Sequence record: PP627278.1
Reading direction: 5' to 3' (one strand)
Source: Escherichia phage KS_A3
Length of the DNA stretch: 58,418 nucleotides
Part shown: positions 14,745-58,398 of the stretch, in pieces
Layout of the letters: every line of letters begins with the position of its first letter
Position numbering within the stretch: the first letter of the stretch is position 1
Program-made: the position numbers and the translations under genes
Notes under the pieces: model-generated
The model's database searches: none
Told to the model about the DNA's origin: nothing
Seen by the model: the letters and a program-made list of their open reading frames with translations, nothing else

Positions 14745-15153
14745 GTTGCCGGGCTGGCAGACACGTTTATTAACCACAGTAAAGGAGTTGTCATCGACTC
14801 CTTTTTCTTGGGGTGAAAATGATTGCTGCACCTTCGCGGCTAAATGTGTTGATGCGCAATACGGCACAAATATCTACGAACAAGTTGCTGGAAAATATAG
14901 TACCGAGCTTGGAAGTAAAAAGTTCACTATTGAAAGAGTTGGAACCGCTTACCTTCCATTGTTATTGGATACTTACCTCAGCGAACGAGTTGACAAGAAC
15001 TATGCGCAAAGAGGCGATGTGGTTACATTTGAGGGAGCATTGGGCTTAACTGCTGGCATATTATGGACTGGATATGTATGGGCTATGGGTCCGAACGGTG
15101 TGGAAACATTCCCGCTTAATAAGATCAAAATTACGGATATTTGGAGGGTCTAA
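14719..15153 (+). CDS. tail assembly protein (lambda K-like, possible NlpC/P60-type)
   Basis: track ORF from 14569 overlaps upstream gene; ATG at 14719 has SD (GGGGGAG); contains NDCCTF motif resembling the Cys-containing NlpC/P60 motif. Confidence 0.4.
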   Translation: MRQGSPMSKLPGWQTRLLTTVKELSSTPFSWGENDCCTFAAKCVDAQYGTNIYEQVAGKYSTELGSKKFTIERVGTAYLPLLLDTYLSERVDKNYAQRGDVVTFEGALGLTAGILWTGYVWAMGPNGVETFPLNKIKITDIWRV

Positions 15154-18100
15154 TGCCACCAGCAATAATTGGAGCAGCGATAGCTTTAGGTGCGTCGGCT
15201 GCTGCTGCGGCTAGTATTATTTCGGCTACTACCGCTCTCGTTATCGGTATTGCTGCAACCGCGGCAGGTGCTCTTTTGACTAAGACACCAAATATGAACT
15301 TTGATGCTTACAAGGGGCAGCAAGAGCGTAAACAGGTTCTGCGTGCAGCTACAGCGTCACGTTCTGTTGTATATGGCACGACTGTAGCGTCCGGACTATT
15401 AGCATTTGCGGAGGAAGAAGCTGGAGATCAAGATGAAGGTGAATGGATGCATCTTGTTGTCGTTCTTGCCAGTCATAAATTGGAAGGTATTGAAACGATT
15501 TGGTTGGGTGATGACGGAATTGATTGGTTTGGTGAAAACGCTACTTGGGAGTTTCATAACGACCGTCAGACTGTTGACCCATTCATGTTAAAACATTGTC
15601 CTTCCTGGAAGGAGGATATGATTGGCAAGGGTATTGCATGGCTACGTTTAAGCTTAAAGTTTGATGCTGAAAAATTCCCATCCGGTTTGCCAAACGTCAA
15701 GGTGTTGAAAAAGGGACGTAGAATTTATGACCCACGTTCCGGTCAAACTGTCTTTAGCGATAACGCTGCTCTTGTTATTCTTGATTATTTCCGCACGTAT
15801 TTAAAGCGCAAGGACGAGAATATTAACTGGGACCAATTCAAGGAAGCTGCTAACATCTGCGACGAGTTTGTAACTAATGCGGATAACACTACGGAAAGAC
15901 GCTACCGCATTAACGGTGAGTTTGAAGTGGACGAAGCACCTGCTAAGATCCTTGATGCTATGCTTGAAGCTTGCGGCGGGGAACTAACCTATATTGGCGG
16001 TAAGCATGGTCTGTTAGTTGGTGCGTATTACGGTCCAGCCACCATGACTTTGGATGAAAGCTGCATTGCTGGGGATATCAAAATAATCCCTGAGACGTCT
16101 TATAAAGAGCGTACCAATACCATTACAGGTACATTCGTCGACCCGAAGCAAACATACGCTGAAGCAGATTTCCCTCCAGTTGTGGTTAAGGAATGGGTGG
16201 AAAAAGATGGCGGTGAAATAACGCAAGACATGGATTTCCGCTTTGTTACAAGTGAATATCAAGCTCAACGTCTTGCTAATATTATTTTACGTCGTAAGCG
16301 TGTTGGTCGAACAATTGAAGTGCCGTGTAACATGAAGGGGTATAAATTCCGCCCCGGCATGTATGTCAACGTAACCATTTCAAATATCGGAATGAAAAAC
16401 GTTGAGATGCGCGTTACTAAATGGTCATTCGATCCTAAAGGTGGGATTAATCTTGTTCTTCGTCAAGACTTCCTGGAAATGTGGGACGACGCTATTGGTA
16501 AACCAATGGAGCGCCCGGATCTGGTAGACCTTCCGTCTGGTGCTATTGCTCAACCGCAGAACCTTCAGTATCAGGTATTGCAGATTAGCGATGTTGTGCA
16601 GGGTGTTTTAACGTGGAGCAATATTGGACAGGTAGCATATAACCGCGTAGCCGTGCGACAGGGAGGTACAACGGTTTGGACCGCACAAGTCCCTGGCCAA
16701 AACGTTCGCGTTACTGGGTTGCTGCGGGGCGCGTATACAGCGCATGTTCAAGCGGTAGCTTATAGCGGGGCAATATCGCCGGAAGCATATCTGGAATTTA
16801 ATATTCAGGCTCCGCCGCCACCAACATCTATTGAAGTACAACAGGGTTACTTTGCTATAAGCCTGATCCCTAGATCTGCGGACCTTGCAAACGTTAGCAC
16901 GCAGTATGATTTCTGGACTTCCGGTGAAACAAGATTGTCATCTGTGTCTACAGACGTTGTTGAGCGTGAAGCAACTCGTAAAGGTATGGGTACAACCTGG
17001 ACTTCGGAAGGTTTGAAGAATGACCACACTTATTACTGGTATGTCCGCACCATTAACGCTTTCGGATCATCTGCATTTGTAGAAGTAGCTGCATTGTGCT
17101 TTACAACAGCTACAGATTTGATGCCACAAATTGATTCTGAATTCAAGAAGACGGAGACTTACAAAGAGCTTACTACTGAAATCACAGGTGTTAAAGACGG
17201 TGTTACTCAGCTTAGCCAAACTGTAGTGGAAACTGAACAGCGTTTAAGTCAAAGCGTTAGCAATGTTCAACAAAGCGTTATCACTTTGGATGGTGTTGTT
17301 CAGGATCAGGGCGTTACCATTAATGAACAAGGACAGCTTATCGACGCACAGGGTAAGTTGATTGACACTCAAGGTAAGACTATTGAAACGGTTAGCGCGA
17401 CCGTGCAGGAGACAAGTAAAGCAGTTGTAGATCTGGAAGGTAATGTTAACGCTCAATGGGGTGCTAAAGTACAGGTAGATAGTAAAGGGCAAAAATACGT
17501 TGCTGGTATCCAGTTAGGTATGGAAGGGTCCGGTGGCGCTGTTCAGTCTTACTTTATGGTAAGTGCTAACAACTTTGCTATCTATAACCCGACAAACAGC
17601 GCCGCTGAATTAGCATTTGCCGTTAAAAACGGTCAAGTGTTTATGAAGGCTACATTTATTGAAAATGGTACTATCGACAGTGCTAAGATAGCAAACCAAA
17701 TTCAGTCAACAAACTACGCTAACAATAGCGCGGGTTGGATGATTAACAAGAATGGTAGCGCTCAGTTTAACAACGTAACGATAAGAGGTACTGTATACGC
17801 TAGCAACGGATCTTTCACAGGCACAGTGAACGCAACAAGCGGTAAATTCAAGGGTACTGTGGAAGCTACCAGTTTTGTGGGTGATGTTGCGAATATGTGT
17901 GTCATTGCTGAGTCTGCAATACCAAACACACAAACTACAAGTTCAAGAACCTGGACAAAAACTTTCAAAGACTCATCCGGTTCAGCATTATCTAAAGACT
18001 TTGTGTTGCTATTAAGTTATAGTTTAACTGCATATACATCAAATCAGGCAAGTCGTATAATTGTGACTGCTAACATAGGGGGGACATCAATTACAAGGAG

Positions 18101-18275
18101 GATTGAGCGAGCTGCTAATGGTCCTGCCATGGATGTAACCATACCTTTAGCAGTGAAAGGAAAGACAGCGTCGAGCGTAACAATAAGCGTTAAGGAGGAG
18201 TATACGAACGTCTATGGGAGCTACTTGCGCCCGTCTGTAATATTAATGACTCGCGGAACTGGTAGTTGGTCGTAA
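15141..18275 (+). CDS. tail tip / host specificity protein (lambda J-like)
   Basis: 1044 aa; N-terminal Gly/Ala-rich hydrophobic segment reminiscent of the lambda gpI C-terminus; fibronectin-III-like region; position after M/L/K-like genes. Confidence 0.7.
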   Translation: MEGLMPPAIIGAAIALGASAAAAASIISATTALVIGIAATAAGALLTKTPNMNFDAYKGQQERKQVLRAATASRSVVYGTTVASGLLAFAEEEAGDQDEGEWMHLVVVLASHKLEGIETIWLGDDGIDWFGENATWEFHNDRQTVDPFMLKHCPSWKEDMIGKGIAWLRLSLKFDAEKFPSGLPNVKVLKKGRRIYDPRSGQTVFSDNAALVILDYFRTYLKRKDENINWDQFKEAANICDEFVTNADNTTERRYRINGEFEVDEAPAKILDAMLEACGGELTYIGGKHGLLVGAYYGPATMTLDESCIAGDIKIIPETSYKERTNTITGTFVDPKQTYAEADFPPVVVKEWVEKDGGEITQDMDFRFVTSEYQAQRLANIILRRKRVGRTIEVPCNMKGYKFRPGMYVNVTISNIGMKNVEMRVTKWSFDPKGGINLVLRQDFLEMWDDAIGKPMERPDLVDLPSGAIAQPQNLQYQVLQISDVVQGVLTWSNIGQVAYNRVAVRQGGTTVWTAQVPGQNVRVTGLLRGAYTAHVQAVAYSGAISPEAYLEFNIQAPPPPTSIEVQQGYFAISLIPRSADLANVSTQYDFWTSGETRLSSVSTDVVEREATRKGMGTTWTSEGLKNDHTYYWYVRTINAFGSSAFVEVAALCFTTATDLMPQIDSEFKKTETYKELTTEITGVKDGVTQLSQTVVETEQRLSQSVSNVQQSVITLDGVVQDQGVTINEQGQLIDAQGKLIDTQGKTIETVSATVQETSKAVVDLEGNVNAQWGAKVQVDSKGQKYVAGIQLGMEGSGGAVQSYFMVSANNFAIYNPTNSAAELAFAVKNGQVFMKATFIENGTIDSAKIANQIQSTNYANNSAGWMINKNGSAQFNNVTIRGTVYASNGSFTGTVNATSGKFKGTVEATSFVGDVANMCVIAESAIPNTQTTSSRTWTKTFKDSSGSALSKDFVLLLSYSLTAYTSNQASRIIVTANIGGTSITRRIERAANGPAMDVTIPLAVKGKTASSVTISVKEEYTNVYGSYLRPSVILMTRGTGSWS

Positions 18276-18282
18276 TAAATAA

Positions 18283-18310
18283 TTAACCCCTCAAACGAGG
18301 GGTTAATTTT
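18283..18310. terminator. bidirectional hairpin terminator
   Basis: TTAACCCCTC-AAAC-GAGGGGTTAA followed by TTTT on + and by a U-rich run on -; sits between convergent genes. Confidence 0.5.
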
Positions 18311-18543
18311 CAATAATCAATCACACAGTTTGAAGGTGAGCCAATTCGTCGGTATTCGTGATCAATTTCATGGCACCATTGCCCAGTCATTGGAAGCTTT
18401 TCGGTATCATAAATTAAAGAACCGTTACCATCGCGATCCAAAGGTTTTGGAATGACACCGGAATTAGGTTTACCAGTATTTAAACCATTACCACATGCAG
18501 TAAGGGACAAACATAATGCCAGCATAATTAGGGCGTGTTTCAT
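18310..18543 (-). CDS. small lipoprotein, candidate receptor-blocking superinfection exclusion protein (Llp/Cor-like)
   Basis: 77 aa, signal peptide with lipobox (LSLTAC), SD AAGGAG; opposite strand, wedged between J-like and tail fibre genes. Confidence 0.55.
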   Translation of the reverse strand: MKHALIMLALCLSLTACGNGLNTGKPNSGVIPKPLDRDGNGSLIYDTEKLPMTGQWCHEIDHEYRRIGSPSNCVIDY

Positions 18544-18625
18544 CGGGACTCCTTTGTGTTGTTGTTAAGGTTCAATTTTAATATACTTGTTGTGTTGAGT
18601 AAGTCAAATAAATGTGGGAGATATT

Positions 18626-21600
18626 ATGGCAACTCGTTTACGTGGTACTTTAGTTGATGGTTTGAACAAGCCTATTATCAACGCTACAGTTGCGCTTTTA
18701 GCTAAAGGAAACAGTCTTACCGTATTATCCGGCAGCGAAGCTATCTTTAAAACAAGTGCAACCGGAACATATGACATCACCGTCCAAACAGGTTATTACA
18801 AGGTTATTATCGGTCCGCAGGGCGTAGAGCCATATAAAGCTGGTGAAATTGCTATTTACGCGGATAGTAAAGAAGGTACGCTGAATAACTATTTAACTTC
18901 CTGGGCACCGGAAGAATTAACTCCGGAAGTTATTGCTCAGGTAAAAGATTTGGTTGCACAAGCTGAGACAGCTAAGAATGCTTCAGCTTCGTCTGCTACT
19001 AAATCCGAGCAAGAACGCGTTAAAGCAGAAGCTGCTGCTAAAAAGGCAGAAGACACCGCTAATGGTATGAAAGCCTCTATTGGTCTTAGCAATGTTCCAA
19101 GACATGTAGCAGATATTAGTGGAAACCCTTCTGAGTTCTTAGGGTTTATACGCATATTAAGGACAACTACTGTCGGTTATCCTTCAATTGCTTCTGGTGA
19201 AACAGTATTAGCCGGTTTTGTGTCACCGATGGATGGAACTCCAGGATATACTGGTGTATTTGTTGGGGATGTGACTGGGACTTTATATACTTACCGTTGG
19301 ACTTCAGTTACTGGCGCTATATGGTGGAAACATGTAAAATCAGAAACAATAGACAGATATACACAATTATCAGATTCCACTGCTATTTATAATGCGTCAA
19401 AGAGCGGCACCCTTGTCATAAAAGATACTAAAACTTGGGGAGCTTGGGACAATCAAAGCTCCAAATACATACCTCTCGCAATAGCACAGGGTGGCACTGG
19501 AGGGGTTACTGACGCGGACGCTCGTACAAACTTAAAGCTTGGCGCTAACGATACCCCGCAATTCAGAAACCTTAATCTTGTTACCGTATTGGACACGGCG
19601 CAAGCCCCTTCCGGTATTGTAAGCGGTTATTTAAATAATAGCTCTGGAGTTCAAAGATGCCGCTACCGCATATATTCTGAAATACGCGGTGACAATAAAG
19701 CGTGGTTAACCTTACACCTTCAATCAGACACAGCAACAAATAAATATGCTGGTTTAAGCGTTGATGGTAATTTTCAAATCAATGGAAATTTTATCGGTAA
19801 CGCTTTAAGTCTTAGCGATGTCCCTACTTCTAAAGTAAATCTTCAAATTAATAGATTTGTTCAGAACACTGGTGAAACCGATGTGGTTAACCATGCAGGG
19901 ACAGCTCAAATTTTTATCACTGATAATAAAAATTGGGGCGCTTACGATAAAGAATCAAAGCGACATATTCCTTTGCCCATTTCACAAGGAGGTACTGGAG
20001 CGGTTACTATTGCTGATGCTAAAACCAATCTTCAAATTCCATCTGTAGGTGGGGGTGATTGGTTAACTTATAACGCCCCTCCTGGCGTGGAAGCTGGAAA
20101 GTATTATCCTGTTATTATTGATATGGCATATAGTTCTTTATATGCTTCTGGCGCTTTTATAGATATAAAAACAAGATCCGCCTCTGGCGATGATCCAATG
20201 AACTGCTGCACTTTTAACGGTTTTATCCGATGTGGTGGTTGGAGCGATCGTAAAGACGGTGGTTATGGTTACTTCAATAACTATGCAAAAAATGAAATTG
20301 CAATAAAATGTATTCTTTCTTCTTCTAAAGATGCAGAAAGGTACGTTGCTATATACGTTGAAGGTCGTGGTTTCCCACTCCAGTTACGTGTTCCCGCATT
20401 CTGTGAAGTAACAGTACCAACATCCAATTTCACGTATAAGAATACTACATATGCTTGGGGCACTGCTAATCCTGCCACGGATTCGACTGCTGTTCTTACT
20501 ATGTTTGATTTTTCTTTAAACCGCATAGGATTCTATCAAGCAACAACGGAAGGTAACTATTATATAGGGAATGGAGAACGTATTGTTTTATCACACGGGA
20601 TGTCCGTAGGGGATGAATTAAGCTTAACCACACCTAAGGTTACTTTCAGCGGTACAGTAGCAGCGGGTAACGGTTTTATTGCGCATGGAACGTCTCTATC
20701 CAACGCTACTTTTTATAGCCGTTATCGTGTTGGTGACGTACTATACGGCAGCGAATTTCGCGCGAGCGAAAACGCGGCCCAGATTATTGTCAGAGATCCG
20801 GCGGGTACTAACCATCAATTCTTTAACTTTAATCTTAATGGAACGTTTAGTCCTCCAAACGGCTTGTTGACTTCCACTGGTAATGATTGGAACGGTCAAA
20901 TTAATACCGTCAATAAATTCTATGCGATTGCTGGAGGGACTAACGGACCAGAACATGAAGGGAACATGGTTTATGGCGGTATCCATGTAGGATTCAGCGG
21001 AAACTATGGATTTCAGCTAAGTGGTCGAAATGGTAAATTTTTTGCAAGAACGTTTGAAGCAGGTAAACCAACTACATGGGACCGGATTATTGTTGCAGGT
21101 TTATATGGTATAGGTAGACAGTCTATGCTTCTACCAGAAGGAGGACAAGCTGGATTCTATTCGGATAGTCGGGGAGACACTCAATGGGCCCCTGTTAATG
21201 GTGCAGGTTTTCAGTCTTCATATGATCCGTATAGGATTTTCCAGTTTTGGATGAATACTTCTGGAGGTGCATATGTCCGATTCAATGATAGTGGTAACGC
21301 TCAAGCCACTAAAACAGATAAGCCTTGGGCAACACTTCAAGTCGCTGGTACATCGGATATTAATTTCAAACGTGTTCACGGTGAAATGGACACAGACGTT
21401 GCGTTAGATAATATTAGCAAGCTTGAATTTGTTTATTTCAACTACTTGTCCGACGGTCCGGAGCGTGACATTCGCAGAGGTATCATAGCGCAACAGGCTC
21501 AGGAAGTTGATCCTGAATATGTGCATAGCGCTGAAACATCCGGAAAAATGACTTTGGATTCTAACCCATTGTTATTGGATGCATTAGCCGCAATACAATC

Positions 21601-21712
21601 CCTCAAGAAAAAGGACCAAGATAATAAAGACCGCATTAGCAAGCTTGAAACTGAAGTTGAGGAACTCAAAAAGTTAGTTGCAACACTTGTCAATAAAGAA
21701 CCTCTACCGTAA
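18626..21712 (+). CDS. tail fibre protein with C-terminal intramolecular chaperone (S74-like) domain
   Basis: track start 18614 is GTG; ATG at 18626 follows SD GGGAG; C-terminal region (DTDVALDNISKLEFVYFNYLSD...) resembles the auto-cleaving chaperone domain of T5 L-shaped fibre/endosialidases, followed by coiled coil. Confidence 0.6.
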   Translation: MATRLRGTLVDGLNKPIINATVALLAKGNSLTVLSGSEAIFKTSATGTYDITVQTGYYKVIIGPQGVEPYKAGEIAIYADSKEGTLNNYLTSWAPEELTPEVIAQVKDLVAQAETAKNASASSATKSEQERVKAEAAAKKAEDTANGMKASIGLSNVPRHVADISGNPSEFLGFIRILRTTTVGYPSIASGETVLAGFVSPMDGTPGYTGVFVGDVTGTLYTYRWTSVTGAIWWKHVKSETIDRYTQLSDSTAIYNASKSGTLVIKDTKTWGAWDNQSSKYIPLAIAQGGTGGVTDADARTNLKLGANDTPQFRNLNLVTVLDTAQAPSGIVSGYLNNSSGVQRCRYRIYSEIRGDNKAWLTLHLQSDTATNKYAGLSVDGNFQINGNFIGNALSLSDVPTSKVNLQINRFVQNTGETDVVNHAGTAQIFITDNKNWGAYDKESKRHIPLPISQGGTGAVTIADAKTNLQIPSVGGGDWLTYNAPPGVEAGKYYPVIIDMAYSSLYASGAFIDIKTRSASGDDPMNCCTFNGFIRCGGWSDRKDGGYGYFNNYAKNEIAIKCILSSSKDAERYVAIYVEGRGFPLQLRVPAFCEVTVPTSNFTYKNTTYAWGTANPATDSTAVLTMFDFSLNRIGFYQATTEGNYYIGNGERIVLSHGMSVGDELSLTTPKVTFSGTVAAGNGFIAHGTSLSNATFYSRYRVGDVLYGSEFRASENAAQIIVRDPAGTNHQFFNFNLNGTFSPPNGLLTSTGNDWNGQINTVNKFYAIAGGTNGPEHEGNMVYGGIHVGFSGNYGFQLSGRNGKFFARTFEAGKPTTWDRIIVAGLYGIGRQSMLLPEGGQAGFYSDSRGDTQWAPVNGAGFQSSYDPYRIFQFWMNTSGGAYVRFNDSGNAQATKTDKPWATLQVAGTSDINFKRVHGEMDTDVALDNISKLEFVYFNYLSDGPERDIRRGIIAQQAQEVDPEYVHSAETSGKMTLDSNPLLLDALAAIQSLKKKDQDNKDRISKLETEVEELKKLVATLVNKEPLP

Positions 21713-57436: not shown

Positions 57437-57781
57437 ATGTTCAATTCACCCAACGAACATTGGGCAGTTCTAGCGGGGTTTGCGTTTATCTCCCTCATTG
57501 GGGGAGCTCTCGGTTATGTCATGCGTACAATAGACGCTGGTAAGAAAGTACGGGCAAGCATTGCATTTCTTGAAGGCTTATCCGCCGCTTTCTTTGGCGT
57601 TATAATGTATGCGATCTACAGGGAGTTTAACATCAGCCTTTGGTTCGCTTTTGGCCTTGCTGGCCTATTTGCTTGGGTAGGTTCACGTGCTACGCTAAAA
57701 GCCCTAACGTCGCTTATAGCTTCACGGACAGGGATCAAACTCGATTCAGGGGACTGCAAACATGAAAACGATTCTAAATAA
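57437..57781 (+). CDS. holin
   Basis: 114 aa, three predicted TM helices, charged C-terminus, SD GGAGGG. Confidence 0.55.
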   Translation: MFNSPNEHWAVLAGFAFISLIGGALGYVMRTIDAGKKVRASIAFLEGLSAAFFGVIMYAIYREFNISLWFAFGLAGLFAWVGSRATLKALTSLIASRTGIKLDSGDCKHENDSK

Positions 57782-58235
57782 CTTCTTCGGTTTTATAAAA
57801 ACTAAACCGCGTCTGTTTATCGAGTATTTGATGATCGGCGCGGTTGTGTTTTTATGCGGGGTGGCTGCATACTTGTGGTCACAGAACGAGCTCAGCAAAA
57901 CTAATTTAAATCATGCTGAGCAAAGACTAACCGTTGTAGAACGGGACAATGCAAAGCTGGGCGAAGCTGTTGTATTTCTTGCATCCCAACGGGAGAAGGA
58001 TACTGAATCCTATCGAAAATTGGCTTCAGCGATTGAAAGTGAGCAACATAACCACAGGTTGCTTCAGGACAAATTAAAAGCACTGGAGAAAAGCAATGCC
58101 GACGTCAAAGCTTATCTTAATGAGCGTGTTCCTGATGATTTGCGCAGGCTGCTCGACGGAGATACAACCTCCACCGCCGCAGATAGTGAAAATAAAACTT
58201 CCAGCCCATCTGTTGGTAGAATGTCGGGAAGTTGA
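57762..58235 (+). CDS. i-spanin (Rz-like)
   Basis: 157 aa; N-terminal TM helix then coiled-coil periplasmic domain. Confidence 0.55.
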   Translation: MKTILNNFFGFIKTKPRLFIEYLMIGAVVFLCGVAAYLWSQNELSKTNLNHAEQRLTVVERDNAKLGEAVVFLASQREKDTESYRKLASAIESEQHNHRLLQDKLKALEKSNADVKAYLNERVPDDLRRLLDGDTTSTAADSENKTSSPSVGRMSGS

Positions 58236-58398
58236 TAAATATCCTTTGGTTTATACGAGGGATATTATCCAACGTTTGCAGGATACAGAAACAGCTCTGA
58301 CTGAATGTAAACTGAGGGTTAAGGAAATCATACGCTATGAAGCTGAAAATGTTTCGCTTGATTTTGTAGGATCAAGCAATTATATTCAGCCTAAATAG
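58096..58398 (+). CDS. o-spanin (Rz1-like lipoprotein), overlapped with i-spanin gene
   Basis: 100 aa in alternate frame starting inside the i-spanin gene; signal peptide with Cys (LMICAGCST), Pro-rich mature N-terminus, SD GGAG. Confidence 0.5.
   Translation: MPTSKLILMSVFLMICAGCSTEIQPPPPQIVKIKLPAHLLVECREVDKYPLVYTRDIIQRLQDTETALTECKLRVKEIIRYEAENVSLDFVGSSNYIQPK

What the first reader, a model, noticed from the sequence alone, without database searches (positions are those of the whole stretch)
18310..18543. Oppositely oriented lipoprotein gene wedged between the J-like tip gene and the tail fibre gene
A 77-aa protein with a lipobox (LSLTAC) is encoded on the - strand inside an otherwise + strand tail module, flanked by a bidirectional terminator. 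This placement next to receptor-binding genes is the arrangement known for receptor-masking superinfection-exclusion lipoproteins (T5 Llp, Cor-type). It may also hint at which outer-membrane receptor the phage uses.
Basis: partly seen in the sequence, partly recalled or inferred. Interest (0 to 1): 0.55.

Follow-up and report, generated by a model that had tools for sequence, protein, structure and literature searches.

The report
Phage lipoprotein that blocks LamB-dependent infection
This small gene in a virulent E. coli phage very probably makes an outer-membrane lipoprotein that stops the cell's LamB porin serving as a phage receptor; a 55%-identical relative was shown in 2025 to exclude LamB-dependent phages, so this is a sound but unsurprising annotation.

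Summary
Window 18310..18543 (-) is a real 77-aa gene under purifying selection (dN/dS 0.05-0.21). It has a Shine-Dalgarno site, a conserved sigma70-like promoter and the only canonical lipoprotein signal in the window. It shares a strong hairpin terminator with the convergent J gene.

The window is a Seuratvirus coliphage, 99.9% identical to KS_S4 across the 1.3-kb stretch compared. Its J protein carries a fused C-terminal receptor-binding domain 97-99% identical to those of BASEL phages Bas21, Bas23 and Bas24, which need LamB.

The lipoprotein belongs to a very narrow family (PHROG 12984). It lies convergent with J in five phage lineages and in E. coli prophages. It stays conserved while the J receptor-binding domain is swapped between unrelated types. 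All eight carriers with a known receptor use LamB.

A 55%-identical homologue, mEp010 gp116 (Lpp010), excluded LamB-dependent phages including lambda when expressed from a plasmid (PMC11893012).

The mature protein shows no detectable similarity to Llp, Cor or Rtp45: it is an analogue, not a member. How it disables LamB is unknown. New member of a known kind; moderate interest.

The parts
15141..18275 (+). J-like central tail fibre / tail tip gene (1044 aa)
   Evidence: Pfam Phage_Tail_Tip 2e-44, Ig_J_second 7e-34; PHROG 31 'central tail fiber J' 3e-184.
17805..18275 (+). Fused C-terminal receptor-binding domain of J (residues about 889-1044), 'type A', inferred to bind LamB
   Evidence: The J protein of the LptD-using Seuratvirus VogelGryff aligns only to residues 5-888 and then ends. 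The last 179 aa are 97-99% identical to LamB-dependent Bas21, Bas23 and Bas24. Distal GpJ domains are associated with LamB targeting in 10.64898/2026.04.02.716166.
18281..18308 (.). Hairpin shared by the convergent J and lipoprotein genes; probable two-way intrinsic terminator
   Evidence: -17.6 / -18.2 kcal/mol, z -6.1 / -5.2. Terminators are annotated at the same place in Seurat, mEp010 and mEp013, and a stem-loop in 9g.
18310..18543 (-). Lipoprotein gene, 77-aa precursor: predicted LamB-directed superinfection-exclusion protein
   Evidence: (PHROG 12984, 5e-57, full length).
18496..18543 (-). Signal peptide (residues 1-16) ending in the lipobox LTA|C; the lipidated Cys17 codon is 18493-18495
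   Evidence: Read from the sequence. Cys17 is invariant in 30 of 30 homologues. Residue +2 is G, A, S or T and never D.
18313..18495 (-). Mature 61-aa lipoprotein with invariant PNSGV, TE, TGQWC and NC motifs and two further Cys residues (C57, C73)
   Evidence: Alignments A1 and A2.
18549..18553 (-). Shine-Dalgarno site AGGAG, 5 nt upstream of the ATG
   Evidence: conserved in the other Queuovirinae compared.
18580..18607 (-). Sigma70-like promoter TTGACT-16-TATATT driving the lipoprotein gene
   Evidence: 10 of 12 matches. The -10 element is invariant and the -35 element is kept in 4 of 5 Queuovirinae, including STP-SP5, whose spacer has diverged.
18626..21712 (+). Lateral tail fibre gene (context); the likely start is ATG 18626, not the GTG 18614 listed by the ORF tool
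   Evidence: Pfam phage_tail_N aligns from residue 5 of the GTG-start version; Peptidase_S74 at the C-terminus. A GGGAG Shine-Dalgarno site precedes the ATG. The KS_S4 annotation agrees.

Best explanation
The gene encodes a small lipoprotein. It is probably transcribed by host RNA polymerase from its own sigma70-type promoter, independently of the surrounding + strand tail genes. I infer that it is exported, lipidated at Cys17 and sorted by Lol to the inner leaflet of the outer membrane. There it makes the maltoporin LamB, the terminal receptor recognised by the receptor-binding domain fused to this phage's J protein, unusable for infection. For a virulent phage this is 'lytic conversion' as in T5: it keeps competitors and the phage's own progeny from being wasted on infected cells and lysis debris.

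Shown for a homologue: expression of the 55%-identical mEp010 protein alone excludes three of the four LamB-dependent mEp phages, and lambda. Shown here: the gene is real, carries a lipoprotein signal and is conserved; it lies next to J in every phage lineage examined; it tracks LamB use rather than the type of J receptor-binding domain.

Inferred: the direct target is LamB; binding is from the periplasmic side, by analogy with Llp-FhuA and Rtp45-LptD; C57 and C73 form a disulfide; the blocked step is adsorption.

I put the function (exclusion of LamB-dependent phages) at about 0.8. I put the specific route (periplasmic binding to LamB that prevents J binding) at about 0.5.
For: Gene reality: RBS, promoter, terminator, unique canonical lipobox, dN/dS 0.05-0.21.

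Family: PHROG 12984 at 5e-57. There are 29 clusters at 90% identity among 5.8 billion and only 3 true representatives among 1.84 billion clusters at 50% identity. All members are 72-104 aa, with Cys17 invariant and C57/C73 nearly invariant.

Placement: the gene is convergent with and immediately 3' of J in Seuratvirus, Nonagvirus, Dhillonvirus, Drexlerviridae (AS5), mEpimmI temperate phages, and Salmonella and E. coli prophages.

Experiment on a homologue: mEp010_116 is the gp116 gene cloned as pLpp010. It excluded mEp010, mEp044, mEp554 and lambda. It is 55% identical to the window protein, E = 8e-32.

Receptor association: all 8 carriers with a known receptor need LamB, namely Bas21-24 and mEp010, mEp013, mEp044 and mEp554. 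The LptD-using Queuovirinae Bas19, Bas20 and Bas25 are not among the 43 phage records that match the lipoprotein. The OmpA-using mEp021 and mEp515 carry a different lipoprotein type.

Decoupling from the J domain: CSP1 is 93.5% identical in the lipoprotein but only 30% in the last 135 aa of J; 9g is 91% against 27%; MagusPhagus against mEp010 is 93% against 26%. Lpp010 also excludes lambda, whose J C-terminus has no detectable similarity to either type. The protein therefore acts on the receptor or on a shared step, not on a particular J domain.

Sorting: residue +2 is never Asp. By the established rule for E. coli lipoprotein sorting, Asp at +2 retains a lipoprotein in the inner membrane.

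Analogy: Llp, Cor and Rtp45 are also precursors of about 75-77 aa with a lipobox and two further Cys. Cor and Rtp45 sit on the opposite strand to the J gene, and llp lies adjacent to and downstream of pb5. Llp and Rtp45 bind the periplasmic face of their receptor.
Against: The window protein itself has not been tested, and 55% identity does not guarantee the same specificity. Lpp010 failed to exclude LamB-dependent mEp013, so exclusion is not simply removal of LamB. The published assay was a spot test; adsorption was not measured and no physical LamB interaction has been shown. LamB has neither a plug nor a lateral gate, so the allosteric routes seen for FhuA and LptD do not transfer in an obvious way. 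Both AlphaFold models are weak (pLDDT 68.7 and 54.1), so nothing structural supports a binding mode. E. coli Nissle 1917 carries a 96%-identical copy, yet lambda still binds its LamB, which would fit a block after adsorption if that copy is expressed. One family member (P0027) is not next to a J gene on its 4-5 kb contigs.
Confidence: 0.72

Rival explanations
1. It is a LamB-linked exclusion protein that acts after adsorption. Phage still binds LamB, but the trigger for tail opening, or DNA passage across the envelope, is blocked.
For: The published test was plating only; adsorption was not measured. Nissle 1917 has a 96%-identical copy in its prophage 4, is fully lambda-resistant, and lambda is still bound and inactivated by its LamB. 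Escape by mEp013, despite its use of LamB, shows that LamB remains present and usable.
Against: Expression of the Nissle copy is unknown, and Nissle has other barriers, including the pr repressor. The solved analogues Llp and Rtp45 both abolish binding by the receptor-binding protein. A virulent phage gains most from preventing adsorption to debris.
Confidence: 0.18
2. It is an accessory ('moron') lipoprotein with a host-directed role unrelated to phage exclusion, such as envelope or serum-resistance effects like lambda Bor. On this view the position next to J is only a permissive insertion site, as for lom in lambda.
For: Lambda carries the unrelated lom gene at the same position. No domain or fold assignment was obtained.
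Against: The homologue gives receptor-specific exclusion. The gene is kept in strictly virulent phages, and its presence follows LamB use.
Confidence: 0.05
3. It is the outer-membrane spanin (Rz1-type) or another lysis lipoprotein.
For: A weak PHROG hit to an Rz-like spanin (E = 0.043), confined to the signal peptide.
Against: The window has its own overlapping spanin pair after the endolysin and holin genes, at 57762..58235 and 58096..58398. The lipoprotein is not proline-rich and has no partner i-spanin gene.
Confidence: 0.01
4. It is a chance ORF and not a gene.
For: Many spurious ORFs of similar length occur in the window.
Against: dN/dS is 0.05-0.21 with saturated synonymous sites. There are 29 protein clusters with invariant motifs. 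It has its own RBS and promoter. Its lipobox is unique in the window.
Confidence: 0.01

Closest known systems
Lpp010 (gp116), the 'type-C' lipoprotein of temperate mEpimmI coliphage mEp010 (Negrete-Mendez et al. 2025, PMC11893012)
   Same: Homologous over the full mature length (55% identity, E = 8e-32). It has the same motifs, the same two extra Cys residues and the same position convergent with J behind a terminator. The host phage depends on LamB. It is the only family member with a tested function: exclusion of LamB-dependent phages, including lambda.
   Different: It comes from a temperate phage and has a longer tether after the lipid Cys (AVDKEAALHNL against GNGLNTGK). Its cognate J receptor-binding domain is type B, not the window's type A. 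The window protein is untested.
T5 Llp (lytic conversion lipoprotein; PDB 8A60, 7QJF)
   Same: A 77-aa precursor giving a mature lipoprotein of about 61 aa with one disulfide. It is encoded next to the receptor-binding gene of a virulent siphophage, is expressed early and inactivates the phage's own receptor from the periplasmic side.
   Different: The mature parts show no detectable sequence similarity (no PDB hit at E up to 10). The target is FhuA, a TonB-dependent transporter whose plug transmits the change; LamB has no plug.
Cor (T1, phi80, N15, HK022)
   Same: A small lipoprotein on the opposite strand downstream of J and the receptor-binding genes. It acts as a superinfection-exclusion protein.
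   Different: Only the signal peptide aligns (hhalign covers 21 columns). Its target is FhuA.
Rtp45 of phage Rtp (LptD exclusion lipoprotein; PDB 9RPS)
   Same: A 76-aa lipoprotein with one disulfide, on the opposite strand just after J. It belongs to the modular 'RBP locus' shared by small siphophages and binds its receptor from the periplasm.
   Different: There is no significant similarity (hhalign probability 33%). Its target is LptDE. It is paired with a separate receptor-binding protein (Rtp44), whereas here the receptor-binding domain is fused to J.

Membership tests
LamB-associated exclusion lipoproteins (PHROG 12984; mEpimmI type-C Lpp) | Full-length sequence homology to the tested member | tested here: met
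   BLASTP gives 55% identity over 76 aa, E = 8e-32, to mEp010_116. PHROG 12984 matches at 5e-57 over positions 1-77 of 77.
LamB-associated exclusion lipoproteins (PHROG 12984; mEpimmI type-C Lpp) | Lipoprotein signal with an invariant lipid Cys and no Asp at +2 | tested here: met
   The lipobox is LTA|C. Cys17 is invariant in 30 of 30 sequences, and residue +2 is G, A, S or T.
LamB-associated exclusion lipoproteins (PHROG 12984; mEpimmI type-C Lpp) | Gene convergent with and immediately 3' of the J gene | tested here: met
   The window shows this arrangement, as do all phage and prophage loci examined in which the adjoining DNA is held. In STP-SP5 the linear record ends just past the gene, so J is not visible there. 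One exception is P0027.
LamB-associated exclusion lipoproteins (PHROG 12984; mEpimmI type-C Lpp) | The carrier phage uses LamB as terminal receptor | tested here: inconclusive
   The receptor of this phage was not measured. Its J receptor-binding domain is 97-99% identical to those of LamB-dependent Bas21, Bas23 and Bas24, which is strong proxy evidence.
LamB-associated exclusion lipoproteins (PHROG 12984; mEpimmI type-C Lpp) | Expression alone excludes LamB-dependent phages | not testable with these tools
   This has been shown only for Lpp010.
T5 Llp family | Sequence or fold similarity of the mature protein to Llp | tested here: not met
   BLASTP finds no hit. The hhalign match covers only signal-peptide columns 1-20. 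Neither the PDB profile search nor Foldseek finds Llp, although the model used was of low confidence.
T5 Llp family | Targets FhuA | tested here: not met
   All carriers with a known receptor use LamB.
Cor family | Sequence similarity of the mature protein to Cor | tested here: not met
   Only residues 1-19/21, the signal peptide, align with T1 Cor. There is no Pfam hit at E up to 1 apart from a lipobox-region match.
Rtp45-type LptD exclusion lipoproteins | Sequence similarity to Rtp45, and pairing with an Rtp44-like receptor-binding protein | tested here: not met
   hhalign probability is 33%. No separate receptor-binding gene lies between J and the tail fibre gene.
Rz1-type o-spanin | Encoded within or next to an i-spanin gene in the lysis cassette; proline-rich mature part | tested here: not met
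   A separate spanin pair lies at 57762..58398. The lipoprotein is 39 kb away from it and is not proline-rich.

The most novel reading that the evidence does not exclude
The family may disable LamB by a route unlike those of Llp or Rtp45. For example, an extended conserved segment (PNSGVIP...) could enter the maltoporin channel from the periplasm, or the block could fall after adsorption. That would make it the first exclusion lipoprotein understood for a plain porin lacking a plug or gate. The 96%-identical copy in prophage 4 of the probiotic E. coli Nissle 1917 might then be the 'unidentified factor' behind that strain's complete resistance to lambda.
Probability: 0.25. Interest if true: 0.6.

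Novelty: new member of a known kind. Interest (0 to 1): 0.35.

Why it matters
It turns a 'hypothetical lipoprotein' annotation, carried by dozens of Seuratvirus, Nonagvirus and Dhillonvirus genomes and by 34 of 5426 complete E. coli genomes, into a specific and testable function. It also offers a sequence marker for predicting LamB use that does not depend on which J receptor-binding domain type a phage carries. That matters for designing phage cocktails, because a phage or prophage expressing the protein should cross-exclude other LamB-dependent phages, lambda included. The mechanism is open: LamB has neither the plug nor the lateral gate that the two solved exclusion lipoproteins exploit. 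A LamB-lipoprotein structure would therefore add a third mode. None of this would surprise a specialist, since the locus logic (Maffei 2021) and the phenotype of a homologue (Negrete-Mendez 2025) are already published.

Tried and rejected
Pfam: no hit apart from a sub-threshold lipobox-region match (LptM_cons, E = 0.14).

PDB sequence search with a profile of the family: nothing meaningful at E up to 10.

AlphaFold2 with the family alignment: pLDDT 68.7 for the full length and 54.1 for the mature part. Fold comparison with Llp and Rtp45 therefore cannot be made. I ran no further search on a low-confidence model.

Profile search of 1.84 billion cluster representatives with the mature-part alignment: no remote relatives. 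The two extra hits were long repeat proteins, which I treated as compositional artefacts.

The spanin idea was rejected because the window has its own Rz/Rz1 pair.

I checked whether the prophage sRNA svsR, which represses lamB (PMC12803456), maps to this locus. It lies at the 3' end of cI and is unrelated.

The context of the one family member not next to J (P0027) was scanned against PHROGs. It gave only an HNH endonuclease and unknown small genes.

My script failed to extract the EP23 lipoprotein gene for dN/dS. Its translation was read directly instead.

Full report
**What is there**

The ORF at 18310..18543 on the - strand exists as described: ATG start, 77 aa, MKHALIMLALCLSLTACGNGLNTGKPNSGVIPKPLDRDGNGSLIYDTEKLPMTGQWCHEIDHEYRRIGSPSNCVIDY. 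An AGGAG Shine-Dalgarno site (18549-18553) lies 5 nt before the ATG.

The N-terminus is a textbook lipoprotein signal: Lys2, an uncharged hydrophobic core and the lipobox L-T-A-C with Cys17. I scanned all 1564 start-codon/ORF combinations of at least 40 aa in six frames for a canonical lipoprotein signal, and this is the only hit.

The gene is convergent with the J-like tail tip gene (15141..18275). Between the two stop codons lies a 12-bp-stem hairpin (18281-18308). It folds at -17.6 kcal/mol on + and -18.2 on -, with z-scores of -6.1 and -5.2. The flanking T-tracts are interrupted, so two-way termination is plausible but not shown.

Upstream of the gene, in the 82-bp gap before the lateral tail fibre gene, is a sigma70-like promoter, TTGACT-16-TATATT (18607..18580). 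The tail fibre gene most likely starts at ATG 18626. The -10 element of the promoter is invariant, and the -35 is kept in 4 of 5 Queuovirinae, including STP-SP5, whose spacer has diverged.

The gene is the only - strand gene in the 0-21.7 kb structural module.

**It is a real gene**

Against seven homologues from other phages, dN/dS is 0.05-0.21 while synonymous sites approach saturation.

The family is small. There are 29 clusters at 90% identity among 5.8 billion. A profile of the mature part finds only three true representatives among 1.84 billion clusters at 50% identity, plus two repeat-protein artefacts.

All members are 72-104 aa. In the full alignment Cys17, PNSGV, T47, E48 and G54 are invariant, and the QWC and NC motifs holding C57 and C73 are conserved in at least 90% of sequences. 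All of these are invariant among the 23 intact mature sequences. The residue after the lipid Cys is G, A, S or T, never Asp. By the established Lol sorting rule, this predicts outer-membrane localisation.

**What the phage is**

The window is a Seuratvirus (Queuovirinae), 99.9% identical to Escherichia phage KS_S4 over the 1.3-kb stretch compared and about the length of that whole genome. Relatives include Seurat, CAjan, slur01 and BASEL phages Bas21 (GottfriedDienst), Bas23 (WildeMaa) and Bas24 (SeppeHuegi).

The BASEL S5 table lists LamB as the terminal receptor of Bas21-24 and LptD for the Seuratvirus Bas25 (VogelGryff) (PMC8594841).

The last 179 aa of the window's J protein are 97-99% identical to those of Bas21, Bas23 and Bas24. 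VogelGryff J (879 aa) aligns only to residues 5-888 of the window's J. At the same locus it carries a separate 321-aa protein on the opposite strand, which I take to be its receptor-binding protein from its position and from its size, close to that of Rtp44.

So residues about 889-1044 of the window's J form a fused receptor-binding domain, and the receptor is, by close proxy, LamB. A 2026 preprint likewise associates distal GpJ domains with LamB targeting.

**What the lipoprotein is linked to**

tblastn finds the protein in 43 phage records:
- Seuratvirus
- Nonagvirus 9g
- Dhillonvirus (EP23, HH3, PNS1, Maverick, CS16)
- a Drexlerviridae member (Enterobacter phage AS5)
- the temperate mEpimmI phages mEp010, mEp013, mEp044 and mEp554, and MagusPhagus

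At every phage and prophage locus where the adjoining DNA is held, the gene lies immediately 3' of J and convergent with it. In STP-SP5 the linear record ends just past the gene. One exception sits on short contigs (P0027).

The J C-terminal domains next to it fall into at least three types that are barely alignable with each other:
- type A: the window, EP23, MagusPhagus
- type B: 9g, KurtStettler, CSP1, mEp010, mEp013
- an AS5 type

The lipoprotein follows the phage lineage, not the J type:

| Comparison | Lipoprotein identity | Identity in last 135 aa of J |
|---|---|---|
| CSP1 vs window | 93.5% | 30% |
| 9g vs window | 91% | 27% |
| MagusPhagus vs mEp010 | 93% | 26% |

Both type A (Bas21, Bas23, Bas24) and type B (Bas22; mEp010, mEp013, mEp044, mEp554) phages need LamB. 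All eight carriers with a measured receptor use LamB. The LptD-using Queuovirinae (Bas19, Bas20, Bas25) are not among the 43 matching records, and the OmpA-using mEp021 and mEp515 carry a different lipoprotein type. These cases are not phylogenetically independent, so I give no probability for the association.

**Direct experimental precedent**

Negrete-Mendez et al. 2025 (PMC11893012) cloned mEp010 gp116 as pLpp010. They found that it excluded mEp010, mEp044, mEp554 and, unexpectedly, lambda. It did not exclude mEp013.

The tblastn hit in mEp010 is exactly mEp010_116. It lies convergent with J behind an annotated terminator and is 55% identical to the window protein (E = 8e-32).

Lambda's J C-terminus has no detectable similarity to type A or type B. 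Exclusion of lambda therefore argues that the lipoprotein acts on LamB, or on a step common to LamB-dependent entry, and not on a particular J domain.

**Most likely mechanism**

The steps below are inferred except where marked.
- Host RNA polymerase transcribes the gene early from its own promoter.
- The precursor is lipidated at Cys17 and sorted to the inner leaflet of the outer membrane.
- A variable 8-11-residue tether presents a disulfide-stabilised domain of about 50 residues (C57-C73) to the periplasmic face of LamB.
- LamB is then no longer usable by the J receptor-binding domain.

The periplasmic-side model rests on analogy with the two solved cases. [quoted passage not shown] Rtp45 binds LptDE at the periplasmic interface and shifts extracellular loops 4 and 5 (PMC12685063).

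LamB has neither a plug nor a lateral gate, so the actual route is open.

Escape by mEp013 shows that LamB remains present and partly usable. E. coli Nissle 1917, which carries a 96%-identical copy, still binds lambda through LamB while being fully resistant. A block after adsorption is therefore a serious rival.

**Not a member of the known exclusion-lipoprotein families**

Pfam gives nothing. A family profile finds no PDB chain, including Llp (8A60, 7QJF) and Rtp45 (9RPS), at E up to 10. BLASTP and hhalign against Llp, T1 Cor and Rtp45 align only the signal peptide, or give a 33% probability for Rtp45.

The AlphaFold models are weak (pLDDT 68.7 and 54.1), and Foldseek finds nothing. The published Llp work likewise found the AlphaFold prediction of free Llp to be inaccurate.

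The shared features are size, lipobox, one probable disulfide and placement beside the receptor-binding genes. Cor and Rtp45 also share the opposite-strand orientation relative to J. These read as convergence on one design.

The spanin alternative is excluded by a separate Rz/Rz1 pair at 57762..58398.

**Verdict**

This is a new, untested member of a family whose function was demonstrated in 2025, placed in a locus whose logic was set out in 2021.

Interest is moderate. The open points are the mechanism on a plain porin, cross-exclusion between the two J receptor-binding domain types, and the prophage copies in E. coli, including Nissle 1917.

Noticed in passing
window 18120-18230 (J residues 994-1030); L008:2814-3035: The closest relatives, KS_S4 and SHIN8, carry a perfect 111-bp (37-aa) tandem duplication inside the J receptor-binding domain (GPAMDV...GSYLR, two copies). 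The window has a single copy. This could be an adaptive change in the receptor-binding domain or an assembly artefact in those records.
   Followed up: partly
L022:5035-5268 (-) = NZ_CP007799.1 2039441-2039674 (E. coli Nissle 1917): Nissle 1917 carries an intact 77-aa copy, 96% identical, convergent with the J gene of its 'prophage 4'. That J gene has a type-B receptor-binding domain 93% identical to that of 9g. Bury et al. 2018 found Nissle fully lambda-resistant although lambda binds its LamB, and attributed only part of the resistance to the prophage-3 repressor. The lipoprotein is an untested candidate for the missing factor.
   Followed up: partly
L023:1056-5268 (E. coli MS 115-1 prophage) compared with window 17805-18625: A lambdoid prophage carries the same cassette as this virulent phage: a type-A J domain (94% aa identity), the terminator, the lipoprotein (97% aa identity) and the promoter. 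Nucleotide identity is 92.6% over the 350 bp that hold the terminator, the gene and the promoter. 34 of 5426 complete E. coli genomes have the locus. This indicates exchange of the module between temperate and virulent phages.
   Followed up: partly
L017 and L018, 6001-6225 (protein P0020): A 74-aa allele whose C-terminus is frameshifted after Gly54, so that it loses both conserved Cys residues. The index lists it in 51 blocks of the collection, next to J in a prophage beside an integrase gene. It is probably an inactivated copy.
   Followed up: no
L015:3293-3511 and L016:2212-2430 (protein P0027): This is the only family member found away from a J gene. It sits among small same-strand genes of unknown function, with an HNH endonuclease nearby, on 4-5 kb E. 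coli contigs.
   Followed up: partly
L021:3328-4417 (Escherichia phage VogelGryff, Bas25): This LptD-using Seuratvirus has a 321-aa opposite-strand gene, probably its receptor-binding protein, at the same locus. Only 124 nt separate that gene from the tail fibre gene, so no Rtp45-like exclusion lipoprotein fits there. Either it lacks one or encodes it elsewhere.
   Followed up: no
window 57762-58235 and 58096-58398 (+): An overlapping spanin pair follows the endolysin and holin genes. The o-spanin candidate (MPTSKLILMSVFLMICAGCSTEIQPPPPQ...) has a non-canonical lipobox (I-C-A-G-C). Both genes are annotated only as hypothetical proteins in KS_S4.
   Followed up: partly
window 18614-18628: The ORF tool starts the lateral tail fibre gene at GTG 18614. 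The Pfam alignment, a GGGAG Shine-Dalgarno site and the KS_S4 annotation all point to ATG 18626. That leaves the lipoprotein promoter wholly intergenic.
   Followed up: yes
L009 (mEp013) compared with L001 (mEp010): The published escape of mEp013 from Lpp010 coincides with only 68% identity in the last 135 aa of J and 71% in the preceding 265 aa. The two lipoproteins differ at a single signal-peptide residue. The escape determinant should therefore lie in J.
   Followed up: partly
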